A stretch of 64,000 nt of DNA from an uncultured Verrucomicrobiae bacterium (lineage in GTDB: Bacteria; Verrucomicrobiota; Verrucomicrobiia; Limisphaerales; Palsa-1400): NCBI GenBank assembly GCA_963702845.1, contig OY969763.1, positions 2,720,001-2,784,000 on the forward strand. The letters run 5' to 3'. The stretch's first letter is position 1; each line of letters opens with the position of its first letter. Below the pieces are notes generated by a model, which did not search any database, was not told the origin of the DNA, and saw only the letters and a program-made list of their open reading frames with translations. A program made the translations under genes and the position numbers. Below, piece by piece: positions 3,482 to 42,538 of the stretch.

Positions 3482-3499
3482 CAATCGCCAATGGTTTTA

Positions 3500-3532
3500 A
3501 ACCACCAAGATATTCCTGGTGTCTTGGTGGTT
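3500..3532. repeat. Intergenic hairpin
   Basis: AACCACCAAGA / TCTTGGTGGTT inverted repeat. Confidence 0.5.
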
Positions 3533-3543
3533 AAACTTCGCCT

Positions 3544-4584: not shown

Positions 4585-4590
4585 AATTTT

Positions 4591-6012: not shown

Positions 6013-6064
6013 GATAGTGCCGCATGGCGTTAATTTTTTGAAACTGAATATTTGATCCGACAGT

Positions 6065-6832: not shown

Positions 6833-6851
6833 CAGGATTGCCGCTGAGCGC

Positions 6852-8037
6852 TCATCTCGCAACATTACACGTTGCGAACATCTTTTCGATGATCATCGAT
6901 ATAGCTGTCGAAACTGAATTTTTCGTTCACCAGTTTCAGGCCGTTCTCGCCCATTTGGCGCGCCAATCAATTTGTCGCGGAGCAGTCGTTCGAGGCGTTC
7001 GGCGTAAGCGGTGCAATCCGAAGCGGGAACAAGATAGCCGTTCTGGCCATCAACCAACCAATCGGAAATACCGCCGACATCAAACGCTACCACCGGCAAC
7101 CCATATCGCATCGCTTCCATGCCAATCGTCGCAAAAGGCTCCGGCCAGATCGAGCTGATCGCCACCACGCTGCATTCCTTATAAAACTCCTGAAGCTGCT
7201 CTTGCGGCACGAACCCGAGAAATCGAACACGGTCTTGCAGGCCGAGCTTCACGCTTAATTTCTCGCAATATTCTTTGTGCGATCCTTCTCCGAGGATGAT
7301 GCATTCAAAAGGCATTGTGACCAACGCGAGCGCACGCAACAAAACGTCCACGCCTTTGCCGCGAATGATTTGCCCGGCGTAAAAAATCAGGTTTTTATCG
7401 CTGAAATTGCTGCGCACCGATGGATCGCCCGCGCGAGGAACCGGCGGATGGATTTCAATTTTTCTCACATCAAATCCATTTCGCAAGAGCTCATTGCGCA
7501 TATATCGCGAAACCACCACGAGCCGATTGAACTGATTGATTGAGCGCGATTTCCTTTTTCTTATCGAAATAGCTCACCCATTTCACCGGCAGCAACCCTC
7601 CCCGATTCCGCGCAACTGAAGCCGCCGCACGGAAAAACGCAATACGCCGAGGCCGCGCGCTTACAAACTTTGCGCGAAAAATAATTGTACTTATAACTGC
7701 GCATGCAATAAATGTCGTGATCGTGAATCATGCGCACCAAACGCGCGCGCGAACGCAGTAACGTTTCGATAACATCGAGGTCCGCCATCTTGTGCACATA
7801 AACAATGTCAGGGGTGAACTCCGCCAGCGCGCTTTCAACCGACTGGGTCGCATTCCCGTTCAACGCGAATTTATGCGCGAACGTATCGTTCCATCTGCTC
7901 TCCGCCTTGCCGGTGGGTCGTCCATGGATGATTCCGACGCAATGCCCGCGCCGTTTGAATTCGGTTGCAGTGAGATAAAGATTTGCTTCTGCGCCAGCCA
8001 TCGCGCCGAACCGCTCGTGAACGAACAACACTCTCAT
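6852..8037 (-). CDS. GT4 glycosyltransferase, frameshifted
   Basis: MRVLFVHE N-terminus in ORF 7561-8097. KGVDVLL and EPFATIGMEAMRYGLPVVAFDVGGI lie in ORF 6893-7519. The C-terminal LARQMGENG is in another frame. The 3' end is approximate. Confidence 0.75.
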
Positions 8038-8178
8038 TGTTATCCAGCACCATACCCGTAATCGCAGTTGCGTCGTAACGGTGGAAGCCACGAACATTTC
8101 CTGCTAGTAATCCCGATTGGAAAACCAAGCCAGACCCGATTGCCGGTGCCGGTGTGCGTTTTATGCTGGGGCAGTAAT

Positions 8179-8470
8179 ATGAAACAAAACGGCGGATCGG
8201 ACCTCTCTCACGAACTGAAAGAACTGGCGGACCAGGCCGAAGCGCTTGTCGGCGCTCGGCGGTGATGACGTAAACGAGAAAGCAAAAGAAATTCGTGACC
8301 GACTCGCCGCTGCGCTGGAAGTGATTCAAGAAACGTTCGGGGTCGTCGAAGAACACGCCGGTGAAAGTTTGAAACAGGTTGATAAAAGCATCCGCCAAAA
8401 TCCGTACCAGGCACTTGCCATTGCGCTCGGTGTGGGTCTCGCGGTCGGTCTGCTCTTGAAACGCAAATAA
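8179..8470 (+). CDS. DUF883 / ElaB-YqjD family protein, frameshift near 8255
   Basis: ELKELADQAEALV in one frame continues as ...VDKSIRQNPYQALAIALGVGLAVGLLLKRK in the next frame. Confidence 0.75.
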
Positions 8471-8482
8471 CGCTTATCGCTT

Positions 8483-8866
8483 ATGTTTGGCCTCGCCTCT
8501 ACTGGATTTGGTTTTCTGTCATCCATTCGCCGGACGTTCGACAACGCCGTTGGCGCGGTTCACAGCCGCATCGAACTTGCCGTCGTCGAGCTCCAGGAAG
8601 AGCGCGATCGCGCCGTCAACGTCCTCGTCTGGAGCGGCGTGATGCTATTTCTAGTATTCATGGCCGTCGTGGCGTTCACGTTTTGTGTCATTCTGGCACT
8701 ATGGCAATACGCGCTTTGGGTTGGATTGGGATTTGGCATCTTATACCTCGTCGGGGCGACCGTGGCTGCAGTCGTCATCCGCAAGCGTCTCAAGGCTCCG
8801 CTTTTCTCCGAAACGATGGACCAGTTACGCAAAGACCGCGAGTGGCTTTCGCCTCCGCGCGACTAA
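8483..8866 (+). CDS. YqjE / phage-holin-family membrane protein
   Basis: RIELAVVELQEE, two TM helices, QLRKDREWL. Follows DUF883 as in yqjDE. Confidence 0.8.
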   Translation: MFGLASTGFGFLSSIRRTFDNAVGAVHSRIELAVVELQEERDRAVNVLVWSGVMLFLVFMAVVAFTFCVILALWQYALWVGLGFGILYLVGATVAAVVIRKRLKAPLFSETMDQLRKDREWLSPPRD

Positions 8867-9070
8867 GCGCCGCACGTTTGTAGACAGCAGTTTACATTGC
8901 GGCTCATATAGCAGCACCTCAGATTGGCCTCCGGAAAAAGGCGACCAATTGTGCCTTAAACGTTCTCCGAACGTCAACCTCTTTTGACGTGAGTTAAGGT
9001 ATTGTTGGAAAGTAACTTCAGCGAGAAAAAGCGGCATTTCGATTGCTATTAATGCAATTGAGAATTTCGT

Positions 9071-9517
9071 ATGAACCTGACTCTGGAAATACAACCATCT
9101 GCTCCCCTGGCGAAAAATAAAGGCCCAATTCTAATTGTGGATGACAATGTTGAATTCGCTCACATGCTCGAAGAAACTATTTCGGCGTGGGGCCTTCCCA
9201 ACCCGATCCACCACCTCCTCGACGGTGCCATGTTGATCGAATATCTCACCGTGTGTTTTACCATCAGTTCCTGGATGCAACCGCTTCCTTCGTTAATCAT
9301 TTTAGACATCATCATGCCGAACTATACAGGAAGCGATGTAATGGAATGGCTCAAAAAAGCGAAGCTCGGCCACATCCCGGTCATCGCAGTCAGCGGCACC
9401 GACAAGTCGAAGTTGATCATGCGCATGCAAAAGCTCGGCGCGAAGAATTTCATTCCGAAGCCGATGGGCCCTGGTGATTACGATAAAATCAAAGAAGTTC
9501 TCGGCGTCACAGTCTGA
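9071..9517 (+). CDS. Single-domain response regulator
   Basis: ILIVDD, IILDIIMP, VIAVSG, FIPKP. Confidence 0.85.
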   Translation: MNLTLEIQPSAPLAKNKGPILIVDDNVEFAHMLEETISAWGLPNPIHHLLDGAMLIEYLTVCFTISSWMQPLPSLIILDIIMPNYTGSDVMEWLKKAKLGHIPVIAVSGTDKSKLIMRMQKLGAKNFIPKPMGPGDYDKIKEVLGVTV

Positions 9518-9669
9518 CGCAATGCTGTCTGCAACGGTCCAACGGGCGCAGACGAGCCCGCACTAAACATTTTTCCTCGCACAAAAGCAGGCCTTCGCCT
9601 AATTGCGCGCAGCCCCTGTTCTGCTTTATTCCTTAGGGCGGGTTAGAGAACGGAATTTTGGAGGAGAAT

Positions 9670-10224
9670 ATGGCCAAAGCGGTTTTTTGTATCGGCACAA
9701 GCGAGTTTCAAGCGGAAGCAATTGTTAATGATCTTAAGGCGGCGGGGTTTGCCGATAACGATATTTCGGTATTGTTCCCCGACAAAACCGGAACCAAAGA
9801 CTTCGGCCACGAACAACACACTAAAGCTCCTGAGGGCGCAGTCACTGGCGCGAGCACTTTGGGTGTGGTTGGCGGCGCGCTCGGTTGGTTGGCAGGTATC
9901 GGCGCGCTGGCAATTCCCGGTGTTGGCCCATTTATCGCAGCAGGCCCGATCATGGGCGCGTTAGGTGGAGCGGCTGTTGGTGCGGCCGTTGGCGGAATTG
10001 GTGGCGCGCTTGTCGGCATGGGGATACCTGAATACGAAGCCAAGCGTTACGAGGGAAAAATCCGCGCCGGCAATATTTTGATTTCCGTCCACACCGACAA
10101 CCCCCAGCAATCAAAGCGCGCCAAAGACATCTTCACCCAAGCCGGTGCGCAGGACATCTCTGTTACAAGCGAAGCGGGTGTTCCAGAGGCTAAACGTGCG
10201 GAAGCAACCCAGGAAGATTGGTAA
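9670..10224 (+). CDS. Gly-zipper general stress protein (DUF3341-like)
   Basis: GGAGG RBS, GALAIPGVGPFIAAGP, GMGIPEYEAKRYE. Confidence 0.75.
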   Translation: MAKAVFCIGTSEFQAEAIVNDLKAAGFADNDISVLFPDKTGTKDFGHEQHTKAPEGAVTGASTLGVVGGALGWLAGIGALAIPGVGPFIAAGPIMGALGGAAVGAAVGGIGGALVGMGIPEYEAKRYEGKIRAGNILISVHTDNPQQSKRAKDIFTQAGAQDISVTSEAGVPEAKRAEATQEDW

Positions 10225-10373
10225 CGACTCGTGTTCTGAGCGAATTCTTAGCACTGATTAAACTTCGTGTTGCCAGTGTTCTTGGCGTCGACACAGCATT
10301 CGTACATAAAAAGGCCCGAACCAAAACAGCCAGGCTGTTCCGGATTCGAGCTTTGTTACTCAACTTCTATTCG

Positions 10374-10532
10374 TTACACGCGGCGTCGCGAAATAAGCGA
10401 CACGACGAACAAGATCAAGAACACCACAAACAGGATTTGTGCAATCCACGCTGCTGTGCCCGCCAGGCCGGTAAACCCGAACACAGCCGCAAGAATTGCA
10501 ATGATTAGAAACAATACCGCATAGTTTAACAT
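10374..10532 (-). CDS. DUF1328 (YtjA-like) small membrane protein, 52 aa, not in the ORF track
   Basis: Hand translation [52 protein letters not shown] with a GGAGG RBS. Confidence 0.88.
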
Positions 10533-10541
10533 AGTTACCTC

Positions 10542-10748
10542 CTAGACTGATTTAGGACCTTTTAGCAACGCGACAACTCCGATGACGCATGCGGCCACGC
10601 CACCGATGAGAAACCAGACGGTCTCATTCGTTGGACGGCCATTAAAGAACCGCGAAACATCTGAGTTGAACGAATCGGAAGCATTGATGCCAAAGACGAT
10701 CAGCATAATTCCAATTGCCAGAAGCACGATGCCGATTGTTTTGTTCAT
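10542..10748 (-). CDS. DUF3185 family small membrane protein
   Basis: GINASDSFNSDVSRFFNGRPTNETVWFLIGG, GGAGG RBS. Confidence 0.85.
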   Translation of the reverse strand: MNKTIGIVLLAIGIMLIVFGINASDSFNSDVSRFFNGRPTNETVWFLIGGVAACVIGVVALLKGPKSV

Positions 10749-11033
10749 TCAAGCCTCCTTTCTTCTGCTCTAATATATCACGGTCACAGGCCTCCGCTTG
10801 CCACCGCTACCATCAAGAATTCATCAGGGGTAAGCTCAATTGTCGACAATGCATTCCCGCTGTCCGCGTCATTCGAAGATTTGGCCGCAACAGAGCCGCG
10901 CGCGTGAGCAAGCGGTTTACCACTTTGGCGCCGTCGGATCAACCCGCTTGCGCACACGCGCGGCTCGGTTAACCATCGCACCTCATCTCGACCTACGCTT
11001 GAATTCCAGTCATTCCTTGGCCATGGTTACCCA

Positions 11034-20861: not shown

Positions 20862-21845
20862 ATGAACGTCATTTCACGCCGAAAATTCCTCACGACGTCC
20901 GCCTTGGCGGCCCGCGCACTTGCAACGAGTGTTCAAGCAGTGCCGCAAAAGAAGGCGCTTATTGCCATTTCGCTCGATCTGGAAATGGCACGTAATTTCC
21001 CGAATTGGGACGACACCCATTGGGACTACGAAAAAGGAAATCTAAACGACGCCACAAAGACATACGCGGTCGAAGCGGCGCGGCGCGTGAAGGAGCATGG
21101 TGGTGTCATTCATTTTTTTCTGGTCGCAAGCGCGCTCGAACAGGAGAACGTCGATTGGCTCAAGCAAATCCGCGACATGGGCCATTTCATTGGAAACCAC
21201 ACTTACGACCACGTCTATGTTCGCGCGGAAAAGTTGGAAGATGTGCAGTTCAAGTTCGCCCGCGCACCGTGGTTGCTCGATGGCAAGAAGCCCCTCGACG
21301 CTGTGCGCGAAAATATTCAAATGGCGACTGCAGCAATTCACAAGCGCCTCGGAATAGAGCCTGCGGGATTTCGGACACCAGGTGGCTTCGCTGACGGTCT
21401 GGCCACTCGACCCGACGTGCAGAAGATGTTTCTCGATCTCGGTTACAAATGGATCAGTTGCAAATACCCCGCGCACCCCAACAGTAATCCACCGGGCACG
21501 CCACCGACGGACGCGATTTATGACGGCATCGTCAAAGCGCAAACCGCCGCCCAGCCTTTTGTGTATCCCAGTGGATTGATCGATGTGCCGATGAGTCCCT
21601 TGAGCGATATTGTTGCGTTTCGTGGCGGCAAATGGGACCTCGATCACTTTTTAAAAGGCGTGCGTCTCGGAGTTGAATGGGCGATTGAGCATGGCGCCGT
21701 CTACGATTACTTGTCGCACCCAGCCGTGCTTAATGTGAAAGATCCGGAATTCAAAACCATCGACATGATTTGCGAGATCGTGAAGAGCGCTGGTAACCGC
21801 GCATCAATCGTGGGGCTCGACGCGTTGGCCAAGCGCGCTGTTTAA
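20862..21845 (+). CDS. Tat-exported polysaccharide deacetylase (CE4-like)
   Basis: SRRKFL, ISLDLE, GNHTYDH, GFRTPGG, SHP. Confidence 0.82.
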   Translation: MNVISRRKFLTTSALAARALATSVQAVPQKKALIAISLDLEMARNFPNWDDTHWDYEKGNLNDATKTYAVEAARRVKEHGGVIHFFLVASALEQENVDWLKQIRDMGHFIGNHTYDHVYVRAEKLEDVQFKFARAPWLLDGKKPLDAVRENIQMATAAIHKRLGIEPAGFRTPGGFADGLATRPDVQKMFLDLGYKWISCKYPAHPNSNPPGTPPTDAIYDGIVKAQTAAQPFVYPSGLIDVPMSPLSDIVAFRGGKWDLDHFLKGVRLGVEWAIEHGAVYDYLSHPAVLNVKDPEFKTIDMICEIVKSAGNRASIVGLDALAKRAV

Positions 21846-24800
21846 GGCGCGTTTGTCCAAATGACGCTCGTCGCATTGGTGGCTTTGCGAATGATGAAAC
21901 CGGCGCCGGGCGTGAATACCTGCGCAGTGCCAAAATCAGTTGAACCCGAACCCACACGACGCCAACCACTGTTCCAATAATAATAAACCGCGCTCGAAGA
22001 CTTATTCTTTTGCGCGACGGTGTTGTCGAATGTCAGCAGCTCATCGGTGCGCGTTCCCGGCAGAGGGCTGGCTTCAAAAGCGCCGCTGCTGATCAGCCCG
22101 GAATTATCTAGCGCAACAGCAGAGGCGCGAATCAAACCGACCGAATTGTCCTGTTCAGTTTCTGTCTGTGCGTGCAACGGCAACGCCAATGTCGACACAA
22201 TGACCGCGCCAACAGAATTCATCGTGCTATTTGTCGGCACGTTTTGGCGGACGATGAAATACGAACTCAAGGGCAAGACATCATCACCGTGATTCACGCT
22301 CCCCTGCCCCACTTGCTTCCAGATGGAGGAATTAAAATAATAAATCTTCGTCGCGCTCAGATTGATTCCGGTTCCTGCGCTATCGGGCAAAAGGATTTCA
22401 GTAAAACGATTTCCTTGCGAAGGTGAGGCAAGGATGCCTTTGCCATTTGGGAACGCTGAATTCAATGACCAGTGAGGAACGACAGAAACCACATCTCCAG
22501 GTGCGGCTCCGTCGAGAGTGTCTGCGCCAAAATCGACCGTCAATGTGTTCGTGTCATTTGTGATCACGTTGTAAACGCGACCTTCAAGCGCGCCAGAATC
22601 AAAGCGCGCGTAGTAATTATTGGACTGCGCGCCCGGCGAATAGACGAACTGCCCTGCCGTCCAGTTCGCACCGTTAACGGTTACGGTATTGCTTACGACC
22701 GATGCGACCGCACCTGAAGATGTAATCGCACGCGTGAACGGGATCGAAACGTATGAGTCCGAGACGCCTAAAAATACCAATGGCATCACACCAGCAGGAT
22801 CACTCACAGCCGAACCATCCGCCAAACGATAAAAACGTTGGCTACCTCCAGGGTTGTCCGAAACCGTCACTGTCGAACCACCCGGAGTAATCTGCGTTAG
22901 ATCAGTCCATGTCGAGTCGGTCAGCGCGTTCTTGGATTGAAATGCGTAAGTAGCACCGGGAGCAACGTTCCAGGTGAGGAACACCAAGCCATCCGGATTG
23001 CTTTGCATGTCCGCGAGTGTTGGACGATCGATCACAACGATATTAAACGTCGTCGTCGCGCTTTGCGATGGTACGGCGTTATCTGACACACGGACTGTGA
23101 CCAAATTTGTCGTGCCCTGCGCGACAGCGGGCACTGTCCATGCGAACGCGCCCGAACTCGAATCAATTGCGGCCCCGGCAGGTGCTCCGGGATCAAGATT
23201 AAACGATAACGTTTGCGAGGCCTGATCAGGATCGCTGGCAGAAACAGTCAACGAAACCGTCGCTCCAACGCTCGCCACCTGATCAGCAACTGGCACAACC
23301 GCCGGCGGATTGTTGAGGACCGTGAGCGTGCCGTTGTTCGTGCTCACAACATAGTTCGACAATTTCGAACTCGGGTCGGACAACGTGAACGTAATTGCAT
23401 AAGCCCCCACCGCACTGTTCGTTGTCGCAATTGTAGAATAATTCGCGGTGACGTCGTCGTTATTTTGCAAACCGACAATGGTTCCGGTGAACACAGGATT
23501 AGTAGCGCCCCACGTGCGCGAAGCATCGTTCGCAGTGACCGAAACCAGCGCGGTCGTGACCGTCAACGTTCCGTTATTTGTCGTCACAGTGTAATTGGTC
23601 AGATTACCAGTGGGATCGGCCAGCGTTGGCGTAATGTTATAATTGCCGACTGCGCTGTTCGTGGTCGCTGCACTGACGAACGTTGCCGCGATGTTGTCAT
23701 TATTCTGCAGGCCAGAGAGAGCGCCGCTGAACACGGGGTTCGTTTGACCATATATGCGTGACGCATTGCTAGCCGTCACGCTCAGCGGCGAGGAAGTGAC
23801 CGTCAAGGTGCCATTCGTCGAAAGTACGGTATAGTTCCCAAGGCGATTGTTCGGATCATTCAAGCTCGGAACAATGGCGTAATTACCCTTTGCACTGTTT
23901 GTCGTAGCGGAAGAATTGAATGTCGCGGTGATATTATCGCCAGCCTCCACTCCAGTCAGAGTCCCACCAAAGATCGGATTTGTTTGGCCATAACCGCGCG
24001 AAGCATCGTTCGCAGTGACCGAAACCAACGCGGTCGTGACCGTCAAGGTACCGTTGTTCGTCGTCGCCGTATAGTTAGACAACTTGCCAGTTGGATCGGA
24101 GAGCGTGGGCGTGATGTTATAATTGCCGACTGCGCTGTTTGTGGTCGCAGCGCTAGTAAACGTCGCGGTGATATTGTCGGAATTTCGTAAACCATCCAGA
24201 GTGCCGCTGAACAGCGGGTTGGTCAGCCCATATTGACGTGAAGCATTATTGGCGGTCACGTTCAGAGGCACAGAAGTGACGGTCAAGGTGCCATTCATCG
24301 AAAGCACGGTGTAGTTACCCAAACGATTGTTCGGATCATTCAAGGTCGGAACGATGGCGTAACTACCCTTTGCACTGTTTGTAGTTGCAGACGAATTGAA
24401 TGTCGCCGTGATATTATCGCCAGCCTCCACTCCAGCCAGAGTCCCACCAAAAATCGGATTTGTTTGGCCATAACCGCGCGAAGCATCATTCGCAGTGACT
24501 GAAACCAGCGCGGTCGTCACCGTCAACGTGCCGTTGTTCGTCGTCACCGTATAGTTAGACAACTTGCCAGTGGGATCGGACAGCGTGGGCGTGATGTTAT
24601 AATTGCCGACTGTGCTGTTCGTCGTGGCTACACTGAAGAACGTTGCCGTTAGGTTGTCATTATTCTGAACGCCGGTGAGGGTTCCACTGAACACCGGGTT
24701 GGTCACCCCATATTGACGTGAAGCATTATTGGCGGTCACGCTCAGAGGCACAGAAGTGACGGTCAAGGTGCCATTCGTCGAAAGCACGGTGTAGTTACCC

Positions 24801-27800
24801 AAGCGATTGTTCGGATCATTCAAGCTCGGAACAATGGCGTAATTACCCATTGCACTGTTTGTAGTAGCGGACGAATTAAACGTCGCGGTGATGTTATCGC
24901 CAGACGCCACTCCAGCAAGAGTCCCACCAAAAATCGGATTTGTTTGGCCATAACCGCGCGAAGCATCGTTCGCGGTGACCGAGACCGGCACCTTCATCAC
25001 CGTCAAGGTGCCGTTGTTTGTCGTCACAGTGTAATTGGACAGCCTGCCGGTGGGATCAGATAACGCTGGCGTGATGTTATAATTGCCGACTGCGCTGTTC
25101 GTGGTCGCTGCACTGACGAACACTGCCGTGATATTGTCATTATTCTGTAGGCCAGCGAGATTGCCGTTGAACACGGGGTTTGTCTGACCATATTGGCGTG
25201 ACGCATTGCTAGCCGTGACGCTCAGCGGAACCGCCGTCACCGTCAGCGTCCCATTCGTCGACAAAATAGTATAGTTGCCAAGGCGATTGTTCGGATCATT
25301 CAAGCTCGGAACGATGGCGTAATTACCCTTTGCACTGTTTGCCGTAGCGGACGAATTGAATGTCGCCGTAATGTTGTCGCCAGATTCGACTCCAGTCAAA
25401 GTCCCGCCAAAAATCGGATTTGTTTGGCCATAACTGCGCGAAGAATTGCTCGCAACGACTGTGAGAGTCGCTGGAGTAATCGACACCCCGGCAGAAACAG
25501 CGCTAACAATGGCAGGTTGCGACACATCCGACACAGAAACGTTCTGGGTGCCGACCGTTTTCAAAGTCACATTGAAAGTCGCCGTGCCGCTAGTCAAAGC
25601 GGCATTAGGAGGCAGAGTGGCGATCGTGTCACTCGACGACAACGTCACAGTATCACTGACGTTGTTCGCAAGATTCCAAAACGCGTCCACAGCTTTAACG
25701 GTCACGTTAAAGCTCGTTCCGGAAATGTGCGCGGTCGGCGTGCCAGTAAAACCAGGGCTCACCGTTGGCGTCGCAGTCTGACCGGGCAGTAAAATCTGCA
25801 ACTGCGAGACAGCCGCAGGCGCGATTGCAACGACGCTCGACGTCGCACCAGTCAACGCGCCCGACGTGAACGCGATCGTAATGTTCGTTGCGTATTGATG
25901 TAAGAGATTCGTGAAAGTCACCAACCCGCCCACTGCCGTCATTGCCGTTACACCTTGTAACGTGCCTGCACCCGCAGACCGGATCGCAGTCACAATCGTC
26001 GAGTTATCGTTAGTCACAAGATGCCCGGTGGCATCTTCAATGCGAATCACAGGTTGAACATCAAACGGAACGCCTGCCGTCGCAGTTGATGATGGCTGCG
26101 TTTGAATCGTCAGCTTCGTGGCTGCGCTTTGATCTACAACGAGCGCGTTGATCAAATTACTGACGATTGGCGTGCCCCAACCGGTGCATAGGTCGAATCC
26201 GGTGACGCCGGCGAATTTCGTCTTACTGCTACTGCTGAAATTATTACCAGTGGTGGTGTCATGGAAACAACTGGTGTACGAAGCGCCCTTTCCGAGAGTG
26301 TAAATTGCGGGATTGATGAAGCCAACCGGCGATTGGCCGACGCTCGCCGCACGCTGGTTCGCCAAAGCCGTAACCGCGGCCCACAATGGCGCGGCGCAAC
26401 TCGTCCCGCCGAATGTTCCCGCGCTGCCGTTATTGTATAATACATAAATATTATCGCCAGTGAGCGCGACGTCGGGGACGTTGCGGAAACTCGTTGAACC
26501 TTTATTGGCGGTCATACTGATGCCCTGCTGCCACACCGGCAACGCAAACACGGTGCTGATTCCGCCGCTGCTGCCAGTATAGGATCCTTGAACGCGTCCC
26601 CAGTTCCATACTGTTTCAGACGAAAAACTCGCTCCCGTGCCCGTCGTCAACGTAGTCGCGCCCACTTGCGTGATATTTGGGCTATCGGACGGAAAAGGGA
26701 TCGCTCCCACGAAGGCATCGCTATCTCCGGTGGCATTGAAGAATGACTGGCCTTGCGCCGCCATTAACTGGAAAACGTTCTCAGCCGTGGGATTCTCTGA
26801 ACCACCGCCCCACGAACAACCGATCTGTTTTGCCAGGTTGTCTGTTTGCATCTGGCTGAGCATCGGCTCAAAATTTGCCAGACTGTTCGGAGCTTCATAA
26901 ACATAAACCTTGGATAGACCAGGTGCCATGGCGATGACCATCTCGATGTCGAGCGCAACCTCGCTATTCCCGGAACCCGGATTGGAAACACCACCATTCA
27001 CCGCGACGTTCGACAGTGTCATCGAAGGCAATCCGAACTGCGACTCGTAGCTCGTAATGTCAGATGTGTAATAACCATCGAATTCCAACAGGGCGATGCT
27101 CTGTCCCGTGCCCGTGAGCGAGAGTCCCGGTGCATACGCGGCGCGAAAATCATTTCCGGCATAAGTGCCGCTCGGACCGGAACCTGCCCTGGGCGTGGCG
27201 ACACCGGCCGGCATAGGTTGAATTTTGCTGTGCGGTCGTGGAACGAAAAAGTCACTCAAGCCACTCACGGTGATGACCGGCACTGCGATATCCAAAGCGG
27301 GATCAACGTCCGGCGCAAAAAACGTTCGCTGTTCAGTCGGATGCTGGTATCTGTGCAACTTCACGTGGAAGGCAGCTTCCACGGCGGACACTGGACCCTC
27401 AACTTCAAGCAGCAATCGATTGGGATGTTTGGACGTTGGAACCAAGCCCTGTGATTTCGCCCACGCAATGACCGCATCGTAGTCTGCTGCGAGCGGCCCA
27501 AATCTCTCCGTTAGTTGATCCGGCGTGAGATACTGCCGGTATTGCGGGCTGCCCGGGTCGTAGATTTTTTGGAGCAAACTCTGAAGGCCGTCCGGATCAT
27601 GCAATGGCAATCCTATGGAAAGATGAATTCGCCTGGATGCACTGAGTCGCTCGAGCGGTTGCAATTGCTTCACAACTGCCGGGACATGGTTCTTCAACAC
27701 TACCCGCGCACTAGCGGCGGTGGCTTTGTCTCCTGACTGGGCTTGCCCCGCGGGTAAGGCGACACTTGAACGGACAAAGCCAAGCAAAATTACCAAGCAG

Positions 27801-27817
27801 ATTAGCTGCAAGCGCAT
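21842..27817 (-). CDS. Large secreted S53 (sedolisin) peptidase with MBG repeats, cadherin-like domain and C-terminal TIGR02597-like domain
   Basis: Pro-kumamolisin region (YRQYLTPDQLTERFGP), EVALDIE, TGDSD, GGTSCAAPLWAA, GFDLCTGWGTP, nine 80-aa repeats. The start could be 27853. Confidence 0.88.
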   Translation of the reverse strand: MRLQLICLVILLGFVRSSVALPAGQAQSGDKATAASARVVLKNHVPAVVKQLQPLERLSASRRIHLSIGLPLHDPDGLQSLLQKIYDPGSPQYRQYLTPDQLTERFGPLAADYDAVIAWAKSQGLVPTSKHPNRLLLEVEGPVSAVEAAFHVKLHRYQHPTEQRTFFAPDVDPALDIAVPVITVSGLSDFFVPRPHSKIQPMPAGVATPRAGSGPSGTYAGNDFRAAYAPGLSLTGTGQSIALLEFDGYYTSDITSYESQFGLPSMTLSNVAVNGGVSNPGSGNSEVALDIEMVIAMAPGLSKVYVYEAPNSLANFEPMLSQMQTDNLAKQIGCSWGGGSENPTAENVFQLMAAQGQSFFNATGDSDAFVGAIPFPSDSPNITQVGATTLTTGTGASFSSETVWNWGRVQGSYTGSSGGISTVFALPVWQQGISMTANKGSTSFRNVPDVALTGDNIYVLYNNGSAGTFGGTSCAAPLWAAVTALANQRAASVGQSPVGFINPAIYTLGKGASYTSCFHDTTTGNNFSSSSKTKFAGVTGFDLCTGWGTPIVSNLINALVVDQSAATKLTIQTQPSSTATAGVPFDVQPVIRIEDATGHLVTNDNSTIVTAIRSAGAGTLQGVTAMTAVGGLVTFTNLLHQYATNITIAFTSGALTGATSSVVAIAPAAVSQLQILLPGQTATPTVSPGFTGTPTAHISGTSFNVTVKAVDAFWNLANNVSDTVTLSSSDTIATLPPNAALTSGTATFNVTLKTVGTQNVSVSDVSQPAIVSAVSAGVSITPATLTVVASNSSRSYGQTNPIFGGTLTGVESGDNITATFNSSATANSAKGNYAIVPSLNDPNNRLGNYTILSTNGTLTVTAVPLSVTASNASRQYGQTNPVFNGNLAGLQNNDNITAVFVSAATTNSAVGNYNITPALSDPTGRLSNYTVTTNNGTLTVMKVPVSVTANDASRGYGQTNPIFGGTLAGVASGDNITATFNSSATTNSAMGNYAIVPSLNDPNNRLGNYTVLSTNGTLTVTSVPLSVTANNASRQYGVTNPVFSGTLTGVQNNDNLTATFFSVATTNSTVGNYNITPTLSDPTGKLSNYTVTTNNGTLTVTTALVSVTANDASRGYGQTNPIFGGTLAGVEAGDNITATFNSSATTNSAKGSYAIVPTLNDPNNRLGNYTVLSMNGTLTVTSVPLNVTANNASRQYGLTNPLFSGTLDGLRNSDNITATFTSAATTNSAVGNYNITPTLSDPTGKLSNYTATTNNGTLTVTTALVSVTANDASRGYGQTNPIFGGTLTGVEAGDNITATFNSSATTNSAKGNYAIVPSLNDPNNRLGNYTVLSTNGTLTVTSSPLSVTASNASRIYGQTNPVFSGALSGLQNNDNIAATFVSAATTNSAVGNYNITPTLADPTGNLTNYTVTTNNGTLTVTTALVSVTANDASRTWGATNPVFTGTIVGLQNNDDVTANYSTIATTNSAVGAYAITFTLSDPSSKLSNYVVSTNNGTLTVLNNPPAVVPVADQVASVGATVSLTVSASDPDQASQTLSFNLDPGAPAGAAIDSSSGAFAWTVPAVAQGTTNLVTVRVSDNAVPSQSATTTFNIVVIDRPTLADMQSNPDGLVFLTWNVAPGATYAFQSKNALTDSTWTDLTQITPGGSTVTVSDNPGGSQRFYRLADGSAVSDPAGVMPLVFLGVSDSYVSIPFTRAITSSGAVASVVSNTVTVNGANWTAGQFVYSPGAQSNNYYARFDSGALEGRVYNVITNDTNTLTVDFGADTLDGAAPGDVVSVVPHWSLNSAFPNGKGILASPSQGNRFTEILLPDSAGTGINLSATKIYYFNSSIWKQVGQGSVNHGDDVLPLSSYFIVRQNVPTNSTMNSVGAVIVSTLALPLHAQTETEQDNSVGLIRASAVALDNSGLISSGAFEASPLPGTRTDELLTFDNTVAQKNKSSSAVYYYWNSGWRRVGSGSTDFGTAQVFTPGAGFIIRKATNATSVIWTNAP
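23318..25477 (-). repeat. Nine tandem 240-bp MBG-type coding repeats
   Basis: Unit: VTANxASRxYGxTNPxFxGxLxG...NYTxxxxNGTLTV. Alternating A/B types give a 480-bp period. Confidence 0.92.
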
Positions 27818-27923
27818 CGCAAGTAACCGCTTCGGGAAACAGCTGAAAAACATCGGCCGATGCTATCACGAAACACCGTAAAACAAACCTCGAAATGACA
27901 AGAATTTGGTTCGCAATGGGAAC

Positions 27924-38490: not shown

Positions 38491-38674
38491 GATGGTCTCG
38501 ACTAAAAAACTGTTCGCATAGGTTTACGTTACAAGGTTGGGGGGTTGCGTCAAACTACATCGGGTTGGCGAGCGGGCGGCAACACGGACGCACACGGACT
38601 CGCACCGACGAACACGGATTGAAGCGCGGGGCGTCAGTCCAAGCGAAAATGTTTTCATTGCGTTCATAAAGTTA

Positions 38675-38698
38675 GAGCCTCCTCACGTCGGCTGCTAC
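38675..38698 (-). repeat. REP-like element
   Basis: Minus strand GTAGCAGCCGACGTGAGGAGGCTC. Fourteen nt recur at 41297-41310. Confidence 0.55.
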
Positions 38699-38757
38699 AA
38701 ATGGGTAAAAGCGGCGCGCGCGGAGCCGGAACGTCCGGTTCGCCAACGCGCCCTACA

Positions 38758-40257
38758 TTAATAGCCGACGGTGATTTCCAGGGGTTGATGTTTTTGTTTC
38801 GTGGCGCGCACGGCCAGCGACAGGGACCAGAAGCGGTCGGAGTGGCCGGATTCGCTGTGGTCGGCGGTGAAGCGGGTGTTGCCGCTGCTGGTGGGTTCTT
38901 TTCTAATCGCGCGGAGGTCGGCGCGGATTTCTGGAGAGCTCGGGATTTTTATGGTGCGGTCTTCGAAGGCCATGCGCACGGGATAGGCGAGCTCTTCTTT
39001 CATGGCCTGGGTGAAGGTGATGCCTTCAACTTTGTATTTACCGAATTTTTGTTGGGCGCGTTTGGTGAATTGACGACCGATGCCGGTTTGGTCGATGCAG
39101 CAGCGTTTGACGATGGGGAGGGCTAAGAGTTCGTAGAGGGCGGCTTCTTGTGCTTCGAAGGGTTCTTTTTCGAAAACCTGGATCGCGGCGGTGTGATAGG
39201 TGCTGCCGCGTTTGTCGAGGACCCAGATGACGGTGAGGTCTTTGTCGCGGCCGATGTCGACGCCGATGTAGAGTTCGGAGTCTTTGGAGAGGAGGGAGGG
39301 ATCGCAGGACCAGGATGAGGATTGCGAATTGGGGATTTCGGATTGCGGATTGGAAATATCAGAGGAGGCGGAATGGGAATCATGGGAAGAATGGGAATTA
39401 TGTGGGTATTCGGCGGCGGTGATTAGGTCGTAGCTGAGGAAGGCGCTAGCTTCGTCGGCGGAGATGCACATGTATTCCTGGTTGAAGGTTTCTACGTCGA
39501 TGGCGTCGCGACGTTTGAAGTCGAAGTATTCGGCTTCGTCCATTTGTTGGACGAAATGGTTTTCGGGCAGCGCACACTGAATTTTGAAGAGGCCGCCCTG
39601 GTCGAGAAATCGTTGGAGGGTGATTTTGTGGTAGCTGAATTTTTTCGGGTTGCCGTTGTGTTCGATGTCCATTTGCATCCGATGGAACAACGTGCTGGAA
39701 CCGCGTGGGGTGGAGAATATTTCGATGTCGCCGCCCCAATCGCCGCCGGGCATGGCGATGGAAATGAGTTTCTCCTGCTGTTCGTGGAGAGCCAATTCGT
39801 CGATGATGCGGCTGCCGCGTTTGCCGGCTTGAGCGTCGGGATTTGAAGATAAGGAGTGGATGCGGTTGCCGTTGGCGAAGGTGACGCAGTCTTGGGTGAC
39901 GGATTTGATTAAATTTTTTCCGAAGTTGCCGGCGGAGAGGATGCGATCCCATTTTTCGACGTCTTCGAGGAGGAGGCATGCTTGTTTGGCGTCGCGGCTG
40001 GTGGCCCATGTGTCGCGCCCGGGATTGCCGAAGGCGAGGATGAGGTAGCTGCGAAGGGTGGTGATGTCGGACCAGCCGAACTGACGGCCTTTGACGCAGA
40101 ATTTGCGCGGGGAGGTGTCGTTTATCCAAGCGGCCTGATTGGGAAGTAAATAATGGGCGGGCCGGATTTTCGCTTTGCCGATGTGTTTAGTAGCGGCCTG
40201 TGCGGCGATGGTGTCGAGGTAGTCGTAGAGTGAAGTGATTTGTGAATTGGTTTGCAT
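38758..40257 (-). CDS. Terminase large subunit-like protein (Mu gp28 type)
   Basis: Walker A-like KGRQFGWS, Walker B IIDELA, motif III FSTPRG, FNQEYMC, RNase H-like YIGVDIGRDKDLT, IDQTGIG, HSDRFWSLSLA. Confidence 0.88.
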   Translation of the reverse strand: MQTNSQITSLYDYLDTIAAQAATKHIGKAKIRPAHYLLPNQAAWINDTSPRKFCVKGRQFGWSDITTLRSYLILAFGNPGRDTWATSRDAKQACLLLEDVEKWDRILSAGNFGKNLIKSVTQDCVTFANGNRIHSLSSNPDAQAGKRGSRIIDELALHEQQEKLISIAMPGGDWGGDIEIFSTPRGSSTLFHRMQMDIEHNGNPKKFSYHKITLQRFLDQGGLFKIQCALPENHFVQQMDEAEYFDFKRRDAIDVETFNQEYMCISADEASAFLSYDLITAAEYPHNSHSSHDSHSASSDISNPQSEIPNSQSSSWSCDPSLLSKDSELYIGVDIGRDKDLTVIWVLDKRGSTYHTAAIQVFEKEPFEAQEAALYELLALPIVKRCCIDQTGIGRQFTKRAQQKFGKYKVEGITFTQAMKEELAYPVRMAFEDRTIKIPSSPEIRADLRAIRKEPTSSGNTRFTADHSESGHSDRFWSLSLAVRATKQKHQPLEITVGY

Positions 40258-40300
40258 AACATCTTTTGGTTTTGGTTGAAAAAAGTTGAAATGGCTGAAC

Positions 40301-41080
40301 TTAGGTTGAACGGCTTTCGGTGCGAGCCGGAGCCAACCATGAGTCCGGCAGGTTGAGGGACGCTTTCACCGCCTGGCGTCCGAATTCGGTTGGGCCGGCC
40401 TCGGCGTCTCCGCGAAGTTTCTCGCGCAGCAGTTTGATGCGGTCGTCGCGTTGGCGATCCAAGGAACGAGTGTGAGTGGCGCGGACGAATTTGAAAAATT
40501 CCAGAGGATCTTTCTGTAATTCTTGTTTGAGAACAATGGGATCGAAGTCGCGCATGATTTGAGCCATGTGCAGGTCGATCAAGCGGCCGTTAACGTAGTT
40601 GGCGCGGTTTTGGCCATTGGCGTCGAGATGGCGAAAGTATTGGTCGGTTTCATCCATCCTAAGTCTGAGGCACTGGAAGCGTTCACGTTCTTCCAACCAA
40701 AGTTTGTAGCCTGATTGTTTCCACATGGAGAGGTTGTTTGATGCGATGCCGGGGTGGCCTTTTTCGGTGACGGATTGGATGATGTTTTTGTACGGGACGT
40801 TGTCGTGCAGGGATTCGTTGATGAAGTCGCGGATGGCGGTGGGGAGCTCGCTGATTTTGCTGCGGTGCGGGCGGTGGCGATGTTTTGGTTTGGGCGCGGT
40901 GGCGGAAGTTGATGGCGATGGCGTGGGTTCAGCCGTCCCTTCGGGACTTATATCGTTCTTCGCTTCACCCCGGCACTCAAGTGCCGGACTAGGTTCAGTT
41001 GTGCCTTCGGCACACAAGATGGTGGCGGCGATTGTTGATTCAGTGTTTGTCGGTTCGGCGGTTGTTGTTTCGGTGTTCAT
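40301..41080 (-). CDS. DUF3486 / Mu gp27-like small terminase-like protein
   Basis: RSKISELPTAIRDFINESLHDNVPYKNII...ISxxxW-type HTH-like segment, directly upstream of the large subunit. Confidence 0.6.
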   Translation of the reverse strand: MNTETTTAEPTNTESTIAATILCAEGTTEPSPALECRGEAKNDISPEGTAEPTPSPSTSATAPKPKHRHRPHRSKISELPTAIRDFINESLHDNVPYKNIIQSVTEKGHPGIASNNLSMWKQSGYKLWLEERERFQCLRLRMDETDQYFRHLDANGQNRANYVNGRLIDLHMAQIMRDFDPIVLKQELQKDPLEFFKFVRATHTRSLDRQRDDRIKLLREKLRGDAEAGPTEFGRQAVKASLNLPDSWLAPARTESRST

Positions 41081-41319
41081 ATATCTACTTTTTGAGGATG
41101 AGTGTAACAACGTCACTTGGACAAAGGCTGTCCAAGTGAAAATATTTGTGCAGAAAGTTTGCGAGGGGTGGGAATGGTCCCAATTTGTTTATTAGGAGGA
41201 GGTTGCGCGTATTGTTTTGTCTGAGGGGATGGGAGAAGAGGATTTTTGAGCCTCCGATAACGGAACAAATTGTTTTGGCGCACGCTGCCGCGAGCTACGT
41301 CGGCTGCTACGAGGTTTTA

Positions 41320-41348
41320 TTGACAGTGCTAAAATCGAGGCATACGGT
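41320..41348 (+). promoter_or_regulatory. Candidate cassette promoter (Pc-like)
   Basis: TTGACA-17 nt-TACGGT. Confidence 0.55.
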
Positions 41349-41359
41349 GGGGCTACTGA

Positions 41360-41387
41360 TGAAAGTCGGAAAGTATTCCGACTTTCA
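41360..41387. repeat. Perfect 12-bp palindrome upstream of the attI-like site
   Basis: TGAAAGTCGGAA-agta-TTCCGACTTTCA. Confidence 0.8.
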
Positions 41388-41419
41388 CGTTCACTTATGA
41401 GATTAGGCGGAAAGAAGCA

Positions 41420-41441
41420 GTATATAATAATATAGTTCGGC
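41420..41441 (+). mobile_element. Integron attI-like crossover site
   Basis: AT-rich GTATATAATAATATA followed by GTTCGGC. GTTCGGCTACG matches the reverse complement of CGTGGCCTAAC, the downstream attC R'' end, at 9 of 11 positions. Confidence 0.55.
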
Positions 41442-41452
41442 TACGTGAATCC

Positions 41453-41782
41453 ATGCAGTCTATTGACATTTATATGTATGGCTCGCTCAAGGAGCGTTTC
41501 ACGCAACGGTATCGTGATAGGCTGGGCGAGCTATTAGCGGCGCAGTTGGAGGCTGCCACCGGATTCTCAATAGACAGCAAGCGATTTTTCATCTTTGCGG
41601 TTGGTGACGACTTACAGATTCCAGAACCTGCAGTATTTATTTTGGAAGGAGACCTTATCGGCTCAGACAATTTCTTAGTCGAGGCAGAGATCACTTGGCG
41701 GGAAGGAGAAGACATGCCCATCGAGGCTCGATGGTCTCGGCTAAATGTCCGCGAATTGCGTGAGAGATATGGTGGGCTTTAG
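41453..41782 (+). CDS. Hypothetical protein (gene cassette 1)
   Basis: 109-aa ORF filling the space between the attI-like site and attC. Confidence 0.65.
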   Translation: MQSIDIYMYGSLKERFTQRYRDRLGELLAAQLEAATGFSIDSKRFFIFAVGDDLQIPEPAVFILEGDLIGSDNFLVEAEITWREGEDMPIEARWSRLNVRELRERYGGL

Positions 41783-41814
41783 CATATTACCCGACTCGTT
41801 ACTTTGAACCCGTG

Positions 41815-41913
41815 GCCTAACCAGAGCGCTGCAGCGGATCCCGACTCTGAGTTGGGACTGCATTTACAATTCTTTAGTCAGTGGCCCGCCGCCGCTGAGG
41901 TTATGTGTCAGCT
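41815..41913 (+). mobile_element. Integron attC site with degenerate R'
   Basis: R'' GCCTAAC. L'' GCTGCAGCGG pairs with L' CCGCTGAG with one extrahelical base. The R' position reads GTCAGCT. Confidence 0.7.
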
Positions 41914-41922
41914 CTTACCTAC

Positions 41923-42252
41923 ATGACGAACGAAGAAAACAAAAAAGTCGAGCGGTGGCATCTTAGACTTGGGCGCGCGAAGTTCCTCCGCCCGGGAATT
42001 TTAATTTTTATGGGCTGCGTTTATGCGTTCGTCTACCTAGCGGTTGCCGGTATGATGTTTGTTCTCGACTGGATCGTTCCGCACCTGCCTTGGATTGAAA
42101 AGCCATATGTCAGTCCAGATCCTCCACCGTTGGTTACTGCTTCCTATTGCGCCAACTTCATTCTAGGAATGATGATTATTGGAGCACTGGTCATTTATTT
42201 TGCAGGACCGGAGCGCCAGATCAAACCGCTATGGCCGAAAAAGAAGATTTAA
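41923..42252 (+). CDS. Hypothetical two-TM membrane protein (cassette 2, no attC seen)
   Basis: Starts 10 nt after R'. Two hydrophobic helices. Confidence 0.65.
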   Translation: MTNEENKKVERWHLRLGRAKFLRPGILIFMGCVYAFVYLAVAGMMFVLDWIVPHLPWIEKPYVSPDPPPLVTASYCANFILGMMIIGALVIYFAGPERQIKPLWPKKKI

Positions 42253-42347
42253 AGAACCTCCCACAAACTGAAGAGACAGATTTTTCACCGTCTCCTCACC
42301 TCCCGAGCCTCTCAATTCAAAACAGCATGTTCGAGGATGAAGGTGTG

Positions 42348-42474
42348 TTGGTTTTTCGGCGGCGCGGCGGTTCACGTTAAGGAGAAATCGATCGGTTTGC
42401 GCCGCGCCGCCGAAAAACCAATAAATCAACGGGTAATGGTCGGGTTCTATAGACATGTCACTCCTACGGAGTTT
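42348..42474. repeat. MITE/REP-like element and probable terminator
   Basis: Perfect 22-bp inverted repeat TTGGTTTTTCGGCGGCGCGGCG (42348-42369 / 42400-42421) plus an ACTCC-tac-GGAGT hairpin. Confidence 0.7.
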
Positions 42475-42538
42475 CACGCATATGATTCGCGAGCAGGCAC
42501 TCGTAGTAATTTCCTTCGATACGCTTCGCAAAGAACAC

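What the first reader, a model, noticed from the sequence alone, without database searches (positions are those of the whole stretch)
38758..41080. Solitary Mu-like terminase pair with no portal, capsid or recombinase
Seen: a gp27/DUF3486-like gene followed by a full-length gp28-like gene with ATPase and nuclease motifs and no stops or frameshifts. Neighbours are thiH and integron-like cassettes, and the coding strand is visibly more C-rich than flanking genes. Established: in Mu-like phages the portal gene follows immediately. Inference: either a precisely trimmed relic, or a domesticated two-gene DNA cutting/translocating system, such as a packaging-interference defence, a trans-acting GTA/satellite packaging module or a selfish element.
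Basis: partly seen in the sequence, partly recalled or inferred. Interest (0 to 1): 0.75.

Follow-up and report, generated by a model that had tools for sequence, protein, structure and literature searches.

The report
Solitary phage terminase pair, kept and multiplied
A bacterium of the Verrucomicrobia keeps several intact copies of a phage DNA-packaging enzyme (small plus large terminase subunit) scattered among ordinary genes without the rest of a phage, which suggests the host or a minimal selfish element still uses them.

Summary
Window 38758-40257 (-) is a full-length Mu gp28-type large terminase with all ATPase and nuclease motifs. 40301-41080 (-) is a strongly diverged gp27-type small subunit, recognisable only through its paralogs. 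No portal, capsid or recombinase lies within about 10 kb on either side.

The pair is not a one-off. The 6.03-Mb genome holds six TerL genes of this family, five of them intact and four fully solitary, plus two distant ones. It also holds at least 13 gp27-like genes, but only two portals and one capsid.

The copies form a lineage-specific clade. The portal-less window branch has dN/dS 0.30-0.38, the same as its portal-linked sister, and a neutral ORF would not stay open at that divergence.

One same-genus genome lacks the pair at the same kinase-thiH site. Another has an orthologous pair elsewhere.

Three pairs, including this one, share a perfect 21-nt palindrome just upstream of the start codon. 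It has 27 sites in the genome, three of them in front of WYL-type regulator genes.

My reading is a retained terminase module working with capsids supplied in trans. The function is inferred. The "integron-like cassettes" are not supported. The earlier scan noted GTA-like Mu-type clusters on other Verrucomicrobia DNA.

The parts
38758..40257 (-). Large terminase subunit (Mu gp28 / Terminase_6 type), 499 aa. N-terminal ATPase, an approximately 26-aa Ser/His/Pro-rich linker insertion, and a C-terminal RNase H-like nuclease.
   Evidence: Pfam and PHROG hits. Invariant catalytic columns and the linker insertion. PDB profile hit to TerL nuclease domains 5m1f and 5tge, E about 2e-9.
40301..41080 (-). 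Diverged gp27-like small terminase subunit, 259 aa from ATG 41080 (271 aa from GTG 41116). It has a disordered Thr/Pro/Glu-rich N-terminus of about 70-85 aa, then a helical core.
   Evidence: No direct family hit. tblastn to paralogs that hit PHROG 426 and PF11985. 13-member alignment with a conserved core. Model with pLDDT above 90 for residues about 80-130 and below 50 for residues 1-67.
41101..41142 (-). Conserved upstream element: perfect palindrome CTTGGACAGCCTTTGTCCAAG (41116-41136), followed by TGTTACACT (41101-41109), which reads as an extended -10. The ATG lies 35 nt after the palindrome.
   Evidence: 27 sites in G000 at up to 1 mismatch and none for the reversed control. It lies 21-43 nt upstream of the ATG of five gp27-like genes, the 5.84-Mb TerS/TerL operon, three WYL-WCX regulators and a DUF3631 gene. 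The promoter/operator role is inferred; the simple scan also scores it as a weak terminator-like hairpin on the + strand.
38672..38698 (-). REP-like repeat GTAGCAGCCGACGTGAGGAGGCTCTAAC, 60-85 nt after the TerL stop. Its 14-nt core is a direct repeat of 41297-41310.
   Evidence: 15 exact copies of the 14-mer in the genome, 6 beside TerL or gp27 loci, several with an inverted partner. Also present after TerL in L038 and L039.
41297..41310 (-). Second copy of the 14-nt core, upstream of the pair. It lies within a 387-bp stretch (41056-41440) duplicated at 92% identity at genome position 2,131,598-2,131,984, beside a truncated gp27-like gene.
38491..42538 (.). Variable spacer between the thiH start and the FGGY kinase stop that holds the pair. 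In same-genus genome G001 the same two flanking genes enclose 2.4 kb of unrelated sequence with no terminase.
   Evidence: blastn of L036 against the window; ORFs of L036.

Best explanation
This is an intact two-gene operon for a Mu-type terminase holoenzyme: a gp27-like DNA-recognition subunit and a gp28-like ATPase-nuclease. It has lost its portal and head genes but is kept under selection, as one member of a lineage-specific family of such pairs.

Shown: the genes are intact, catalytically complete, multiplied within this lineage, constrained at the protein level, variably present between same-genus genomes, and preceded by a palindromic element shared with about 27 sites in the genome.

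Inferred: the palindrome is the operator of a WYL-type regulator, and WYL regulators elsewhere sense DNA damage or phage infection. On induction, the small subunit would bind a site in or near its own gene and the large subunit would cut there. The large subunit would then dock on a portal supplied in trans, either from the resident head genes (portals at 2.30 and 5.25 Mb, capsid at 5.25 Mb) or from an infecting related phage. It would then pump adjacent DNA into that capsid.

The outcome would be GTA-like or lateral-transduction-like packaging of host DNA, which would also compete with a phage's own packaging.
For: Integrity and motifs.

Copy numbers by profile: 6 Terminase_6C, 2 PF04860 portals and 1 PF05065 capsid in 6.03 Mb. 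Four pairs are flanked by ordinary genes.

Phylogeny of 81 TerL rows: all G000 copies and the same-genus copies form one clade (support 85; inner 7-row clade 97*). The sister group is three paralogs of another Verrucomicrobiales MAG (100*).

Selection: the window branch has dN/dS 0.30-0.38, against 0.35-0.44 for the portal-linked 2.30-Mb sister branch. The three MAG paralogs have 0.065-0.098 at dS about 0.5. TerL dN of about 0.19 to the G002 copy compares with housekeeping dS of 1.3-2.1 between these genomes. In a neutral simulation, 0 of 5000 ORFs stay open at d=0.25.

The only TerL sitting with the capsid, protease, adaptor and portal genes (5.25 Mb) carries an in-frame TAG where relatives have Tyr, His or Cys.

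The shared palindrome has 27 sites in G000, 18 in G002, 5 in G001, 0-4 in other genera and 0 for the reversed control. It lies in front of three HTH-WYL-WCX regulators and is conserved upstream of the G002 ortholog.

WYL regulators control DNA-damage and phage-defence genes (abstracts of PMC10693628 and PMC12041258 as listed; passages of PMC6789036).

A second, unrelated clade of TerL genes flanked by host genes exists in Opitutales: L103, L107, L112 and L116, with ApbE downstream in two of them.
Against: There is no expression, particle or binding evidence.

No tail or lysis genes were recognised near the head genes, so a complete particle may not be encodable.

dN/dS of 0.3-0.4 is several times the housekeeping value of 0.04-0.05. 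That fits relaxed constraint, although biased third positions probably depress dS.

There is a visible decay series in the same genome: a head cluster with a broken TerL; TerS-TerL-portal; TerS-TerL; and six solo gp27-like genes, two of them truncated.

Flank comparisons with MAG contigs also show rearranged housekeeping genes, so lack of synteny is weak evidence of mobility.

The palindrome could be a hairpin of another kind. The 2.59-Mb and 3.50-Mb pairs lack it.

No PADLOC family matches.
Confidence: 0.42

Rival explanations
1. The pair is a remnant of Mu-type prophage or head-module copies in slow decay. It has no present function, and its intactness reflects recency or weak residual constraint.
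For: There is a decay series in one genome, with a nonsense codon in the 5.25-Mb TerL and truncated solo gp27-like genes. The nearest outside relative, L138, still has a portal 1.3 kb after TerL, and L038's downstream DNA matches the TerL-portal spacer of the 2.30-Mb copy. dN/dS is 6-9 times that of housekeeping genes. Four of the six copies lie at 2.18-2.76 Mb, near the skew-inferred terminus.
Against: The window branch has dS about 0.25, and 0 of 5000 neutral simulations keep the ORF open at that distance. dN is well below dS. Catalytic columns are invariant in 15 of 15 sequences. The same two genes are retained in four loci here, in at least one locus in G002, in three loci of another MAG and in an Opitutales clade. 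The upstream element is conserved.
Confidence: 0.22
2. The pair is an anti-phage defence by packaging interference. Induced TerS/TerL would compete for, or cut, the DNA of related infecting phages, or occupy their procapsids.
For: WYL-type regulators are described as controlling phage-defence genes (abstract of PMC10693628). The gp27-like subunits diverge much faster than TerL (36-39% against 74% for window versus the 2.30-Mb copy), as expected for changing DNA specificity. Satellite-encoded small terminases are described as redirecting packaging and as interference genes (passages of PMC9618062).
Against: No PADLOC match for 15 proteins of these loci. No neighbouring defence genes in the window. 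No precedent found for a TerS+TerL defence in the searches. This is not separable from the best explanation with sequence data.
Confidence: 0.15
3. The pair is a selfish two-gene mobile unit. It would spread either by using the RNase H-fold nuclease as a transposase-like enzyme, or by being packaged with its flanks and recombined into new hosts.
For: Presence/absence at the FGGY-thiH site. An orthologous pair sits beside fmt in G002, where G000 has none. There are multiple copies per genome. Direct 14-nt repeats flank the pair. No integrase is needed in the transduction version.
Against: No near-identical copies exist: the closest pair in G000 is 80% identical in DNA. No terminal inverted repeats or target duplications were found. 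The flanking 14-mer is a genome-wide repeat. In the MAG with three paralogs, homology starts at the TerL start codon and does not include the upstream gene.
Confidence: 0.08

Closest known systems
Phage Mu gp27/gp28 terminase (Pfam PF11985 plus Terminase_6N/6C) in Mu-like phages and prophages
   Same: Gene order is small then large subunit, and the same Pfam and PHROG families match. In 55 of the 70 related loci with at least 1.5 kb downstream, a portal follows TerL directly.
   Different: No portal, Mu F, protease or capsid follows here. The small subunit is too diverged to hit PF11985 itself. There are several copies per genome against two portals and one capsid.
Gene transfer agents with a multilocus genome (RcGTA; PMC5026251, abstract seen in the listing)
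   Same: Phage-derived packaging and head genes kept by the host, spread over several loci and not able to transfer themselves as a unit.
   Different: No tail or lysis genes were recognised. The terminase genes outnumber the head genes. No evidence of particles. The head-linked TerL is broken in this genome.
Phage satellites that carry their own small terminase (PICI-type and marine VEIMEs; passages of PMC9618062)
   Same: A packaging-specificity gene held outside a complete phage that would rely on a helper's capsids.
   Different: Here the large subunit is kept too. There is no integrase, replication or regulator module within the 29016-55310 region scanned.
WYL-domain regulators and their regulons (PafBC, DriD, SiwR; PMC6789036 passages; others as abstracts in the listing)
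   Same: Three HTH-WYL-WCX genes carry the same palindrome as the terminase pairs, which suggests autoregulation and a shared regulon.
   Different: Binding was not tested. PafBC's own motif is described as non-palindromic. The link to the terminase pairs is an inference.

Membership tests
Large terminase, Terminase_6 (T4 gp17 / Mu gp28 type) | Pfam Terminase_6C and Terminase_6N above their gathering scores | tested here: met
   78.7 bits against 22.6, and 24.0 against 22.
Large terminase, Terminase_6 (T4 gp17 / Mu gp28 type) | ATPase P-loop, Walker B Asp-Glu, coupling Ser-Thr, and three nuclease acidic residues | tested here: met
   K56, R58, Q59, G61, D153, E154, S182, T183, D334, D389 and D474 are invariant in 15 of 15 sequences. 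The assignment of columns to motifs is recalled.
Mu gp27 / DUF3486 small terminase (PF11985) | Profile match of the protein itself | tested here: not met
   No Pfam hit at E up to 1 and no PHROG hit. None of its 10 close homologs carries a Pfam domain.
Mu gp27 / DUF3486 small terminase (PF11985) | Homology to members, and position directly upstream of TerL | tested here: met
   tblastn to paralogs that hit PF11985 (29.7 bits, cut-off 28) and PHROG 426. There is a 43-nt gap to the TerL start.
Complete or defective Mu-like prophage | Portal (and Mu F, protease, capsid) following TerL; transposase or recombinase nearby | tested here: not met
   No portal hit by tblastn with 15 portals in window 28001-52000. 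None of the 20 large ORFs scanned in 29016-55310 is such a gene.
Gene transfer agent | Head and tail gene set present in the genome | tested here: inconclusive
   One capsid, one protease, one adaptor and two portals were found; no tail genes were recognised. The Portal_Mu search was uninformative because the control was silent.
Gene transfer agent | Particles that carry host DNA | not testable with these tools
   Needs culture, particle purification and sequencing.
Known anti-phage defence systems (PADLOC-DB 2.0) | Profile match of any protein of the locus | tested here: not met
   0 of 15 proteins matched.
   No integrase among the scanned ORFs. attC sites were not searched. The repeats found are genome-wide REP-like elements.

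The most novel reading that the evidence does not exclude
The pairs are integrase-less 'packaging cassettes'. Each consists of a promoter under a WYL-type stress or infection sensor, a fast-evolving small subunit that recognises a site in its own locus, and a large subunit. From several chromosomal positions they would start headful packaging of neighbouring host DNA into capsids borrowed from resident head genes or from infecting phages. That would make a distributed, multi-origin transduction system. The cassette would also spread itself by recombination of its flanks, and the system has arisen more than once in Verrucomicrobiota.
Probability: 0.18. Interest if true: 0.85.

Novelty: new variant of a known kind. 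Interest (0 to 1): 0.6.

Why it matters
Terminases are treated as markers of phages, and solitary ones as debris. This genome shows the opposite pattern. The two packaging genes alone are multiplied, kept open and constrained, and wired to a promoter element shared with host regulators, while the head genes are few and the head-linked terminase is the broken one.

If the pairs act in trans on borrowed capsids, they would be a simple route to host-controlled or selfish transduction without integrases. They would also give a test system for how terminase specificity evolves.

For annotation, it warns against counting prophages or viral contigs by TerL hits in Verrucomicrobiota.

Tried and rejected
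- Sequencing runs: none was listed for window 38500-41300, so no RNA holder is listed.
- Structure of the small subunit: the model is usable only for the core (mean pLDDT 66.7). Foldseek against the PDB gave no match at E <= 0.001. The VIA-align libraries were not tried.
- PADLOC: no match.
- Highly expressed codon usage as the cause of the C-rich third positions: rejected. DnaK has +0.43 and S16 has -0.06, and the other extreme ORFs do not look like housekeeping genes by eye.
- Replication skew as the cause: rejected. The genome-wide skew is about 0.03, and copies on opposite strands share the bias.
- The 14-mer direct repeats as att sites: rejected as specific ends, because the 14-mer occurs 15 times genome-wide.
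- Rfam: only a sub-threshold Acido-Lenti-1 match inside the small-subunit gene, absent from 8 other loci.
- Literature: the searches found no paper on orphan, solitary or stand-alone terminase gene pairs, nor one linking WYL regulators to terminases. This covers only the held open-access library.
- My first automatic choice of downstream ORFs mis-picked antisense ORFs in several loci. The portal counts therefore rest on the tblastn.
Full report
**What is at the coordinates**

On the minus strand, 38758-40257 is an uninterrupted 499-codon ORF. It hits Pfam Terminase_6C (78.7 bits, cut-off 22.6) and Terminase_6N (24.0 bits, cut-off 22), and PHROG large-terminase families.

I aligned it with four paralogs and ten database relatives. 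Residues that I assign, from memory of the family, to the catalytic motifs are invariant in 15 of 15 sequences: the lambda-type P-loop (K56, R58, Q59, G61), Walker B (D153, E154), the coupling motif (S182, T183) and the nuclease acids (D334, D389, D474). A profile of that alignment finds solved TerL nuclease domains (5m1f, 5tge) at E about 2e-9.

The window copy and three relatives (the 2.30-Mb copy, P0004 and P0005) carry an approximately 26-residue Ser/His/Pro-rich insertion between the two domains.

**The upstream gene**

The ORF at 40301-41080 ends 43 nt before the TerL start. It has no Pfam or PHROG hit of its own, and its 10 close homologs carry no Pfam domain.

It is nevertheless homologous to upstream partners of the other terminases in the genome (tblastn E 1e-44 to 7e-7). 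Five of those hit PHROG 426 'terminase small subunit', and one passes the PF11985 (Mu gp27) cut-off.

A 13-member alignment shows a conserved core after a variable, low-complexity N-terminus. The AlphaFold model is confident only for a small helical domain followed by long helices, and it has no significant PDB match. The label 'gp27-like small subunit' therefore rests on transitive homology and gene position.

**Surroundings**

Downstream lies a thiH-like radical-SAM gene, and upstream an FGGY sugar kinase. The 20 large ORFs scanned between 29016 and 55310 are ordinary chromosomal genes, with no portal, capsid, integrase or transposase.

The two small ORFs between the pair and the kinase hit nothing. 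I found no support for 'integron-like cassettes'. The spacers instead hold short repeats that occur genome-wide. No tRNA gene lies in the window.

**The pair is one of a family**

The window's genome is a single 6.03-Mb contig. It holds six TerL genes of this family, plus two distant TerL genes (about 23% identity) that also follow gp27-like genes.

| Locus | Identity to window TerL | Context |
|---|---|---|
| 2.76 Mb (window) | - | Pair only, among host genes |
| 2.30 Mb | 74% | TerS, TerL, portal, then an unknown ORF running into hom |
| 2.18 Mb | 63% | Pair only, among host genes |
| 2.59 Mb | 52% | Pair only, among host genes |
| 5.25 Mb | 51% | Protease, capsid, adaptor, portal, then TerL with an in-frame TAG |
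| 3.50 Mb | 45% | Pair only, among host genes |

(Contexts.)

In the 5.25-Mb copy the TAG sits where relatives have Tyr, His or Cys. By profile search the genome has two PF04860 portals and one PF05065 capsid. The Portal_Mu search was uninformative because its control was silent.

Six more gp27-like genes stand alone among host genes, and two of them look truncated.

**Relatives elsewhere**

Of 31 related genomes, 16 have a match at E <= 1e-20. Several copies occur in the two same-genus genomes.

Among 80 loci from named genome records, 70 have at least 1.5 kb downstream of TerL:
- 55 have a portal directly after TerL.
- 2 have a portal elsewhere in the locus.
- 13 have no portal hit.

The 13 include contigs of the same-genus genomes G001 and G002, three paralogs in another Verrucomicrobiales MAG, and an Opitutales clade. 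In that clade (L103, L107, L112, L116, the last with a portal 3.4 kb upstream on the other strand) TerL is flanked by host genes, with ApbE downstream in two members. One of the 13 (L109) is a real phage with a capsid gene and probably a portal of another type.

**Phylogeny**

In a quick maximum-likelihood tree of 81 TerL rows, every G000 copy and the G001/G002 copies fall in one clade (support 85; the inner seven rows 97*). The three MAG paralogs are sister to it (100*; 13 rows at 93).

This is a lineage-specific expansion, not a set of independent prophage captures.

The closest outside relative with flanks (L138, 66%) has TerL, an unknown gene, then a portal. The DNA after TerL in the G002 copy matches the TerL-portal spacer of the 2.30-Mb copy. 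The window copy therefore lost its portal after splitting from portal-linked relatives.

**Selection**

By Nei-Gojobori estimates, window against the 2.30-Mb copy gives dS 0.47 and dN 0.17. Window against the G002 copy gives dS 0.74-0.80 and dN 0.19-0.22.

Three-taxon branch estimates give the window branch dN/dS 0.30-0.38. The portal-linked sister branch gives 0.35-0.44.

The three MAG paralogs have dN/dS 0.065-0.098 at dS about 0.5, and their homology starts exactly at the TerL start codon. Flanking housekeeping genes have dS 1.3-2.1 and dN/dS 0.04-0.05 between these genomes.

A simple neutral simulation leaves 0 of 5000 ORFs open at d=0.25. The gene is constrained, though less so than housekeeping genes. 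The strongly biased third positions probably depress dS and inflate the ratio.

**Presence and absence**

In G001 the same kinase end and thiH enclose 2.4 kb of unrelated sequence without a terminase.

In G002 an orthologous pair (small subunit 63-69%, TerL 70%) lies beside fmt and a tail-specific protease. Those flanks map to 1.82 Mb in G000, where there is no terminase.

By contrast, the 5.25-Mb copy is syntenic (gcvH downstream) in G002 and in G001 (locus L049). One G002 contig also joins housekeeping genes that are far apart in G000. Lack of synteny alone therefore does not prove mobility.

**A shared upstream element**

Thirty-five nucleotides before the ATG of the small-subunit gene lies a perfect 21-nt palindrome, CTTGGACAGCCTTTGTCCAAG, followed by TGTTACACT. 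At up to one mismatch it has:
- 27 sites in G000
- 18 in G002
- 5 in G001
- 0-4 in 18 other related genomes
- 0 for the reversed control

Where a downstream ORF can be called, its ATG lies 21-43 nt after the palindrome. These ORFs include five gp27-like genes (window, 2.18 Mb, 2.30 Mb and two solo copies), the first gene of the 5.84-Mb operon that ends in TerS and TerL, three HTH-WYL-WCX regulators and a DUF3631 protein. The element is kept upstream of the G002 ortholog.

The coding sequences behind it are only 31-39% identical, so the element is conserved far beyond its genes.

I read it as a promoter with an operator, possibly for the WYL regulators, which would then autoregulate. That reading is an inference. 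The consensus scan also scores the hairpin as a weak terminator on the other strand, and the 2.59-Mb and 3.50-Mb pairs lack it.

WYL regulators are described as sensors in DNA-damage and phage-defence control (abstracts in the listing; passages of PMC6789036).

**Composition**

The third-position GC skew is -0.71 for the window TerL, -0.73 for the 2.30-Mb copy and -0.69 for the 2.18-Mb copy. These rank 5th, 1st and 6th lowest of 2316 long ORFs. The G002 orthologs share the bias while their flanks do not.

The 2.59-Mb copy sits at the opposite extreme, at +0.52. Neither replication skew nor the codon pattern of DnaK or S16 explains this. I have no explanation.

**Reading**

The evidence favours a terminase module retained under selection over a neutral relic. 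The mechanism I commit to, packaging into capsids supplied in trans under a stress-responsive promoter, is inferred. It rests on what terminases do, the shortage of head genes, the broken head-linked TerL, and the shared promoter element.

Defence by packaging interference and a selfish cassette remain open. Slow decay is still possible, given the decay series in the same genome.

Searches of the held literature found no description of solitary terminase pairs. Earlier notes of this scan describe GTA-like Mu-type head clusters in other Verrucomicrobia. The uniform TerS-TerL-Portal_Mu-protease loci of Puniceicoccales fit that description, but I did not test the GTA claim.

Noticed in passing
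window 41116-41136 and 26 other sites of the genome (for example G000 124643, 1698099, 4315889, 5753354, 5844315): A perfect 21-nt palindrome followed by TGnTAnnnT lies 21-43 nt upstream of the start codons of three HTH-WYL-WCX regulators, a DUF3631 gene, gp27-like genes and several small unknown ORFs. It is multi-copy only in this genus. It looks like a regulon.
   Followed up: partly
window 38758-41116; G000 2.30, 2.18, 2.59 and 3.50 Mb copies; L038, L039: The third-codon-position GC skew of the terminase genes sits at both extremes of the genome's distribution: -0.7 in one clade, conserved across species, and +0.5 to +0.7 in the 2.59 and 3.50 Mb copies. This is unexplained.
   Followed up: partly
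window 38672-38698 and 41297-41310; 13 other genome sites: A REP-like repeat, GTAGCAGCCGACGT(S)AGGAGGCTCT, often has an inverted partner. 6 of its 15 exact copies lie beside terminase or gp27-like genes.
   Followed up: partly
L012 (G000 5,238,500-5,258,400): 1500-10752: A head-gene block in an unusual order: protease, capsid, a GH32-like gene, adaptor, portal, TerL. The TerL is interrupted by one TAG. It is followed by gcvH, as in G002 and G001 (locus L049).
   Followed up: partly
L103, L107, L112, L116 (Opitutales MAGs): A second, separate clade of TerL genes sits among housekeeping genes without an adjacent portal. ApbE lies downstream in two of them.
   Followed up: partly
L044, L045, L047 (one Verrucomicrobiales MAG): Three TerL paralogs are 95-96% identical in protein but only 89% in DNA. 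Homology starts at the start codon and ends about 130 nt after the stop. The upstream genes differ.
   Followed up: partly
window 40969-41014 (+): A full-length but sub-threshold match to Rfam Acido-Lenti-1 (36 bits, gathering score 37), antisense inside the 5' part of the small-subunit gene. It was not found in 8 related loci.
   Followed up: partly
L036 (G001:C438) 1517-2049: In the same-genus genome, the kinase-thiH spacer holds two small overlapping minus-strand ORFs (128 and 71 aa) that look like a toxin-antitoxin pair by eye. They were not scanned.
   Followed up: no
L009 12363-14891: An 842-codon ORF joins an unknown 412-aa part (similar to a gene next to the portal in L138 and to G000 1.735 Mb) to homoserine dehydrogenase. 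It may be two genes or a fusion.
   Followed up: no
window 21842-27853 (-): A 2003-codon ORF that was not examined.
   Followed up: no
G000 whole genome: Cumulative GC skew puts the terminus near 2.15-2.2 Mb and the origin near 4.7 Mb. Four of the six TerL copies lie at 2.18-2.76 Mb.
   Followed up: no
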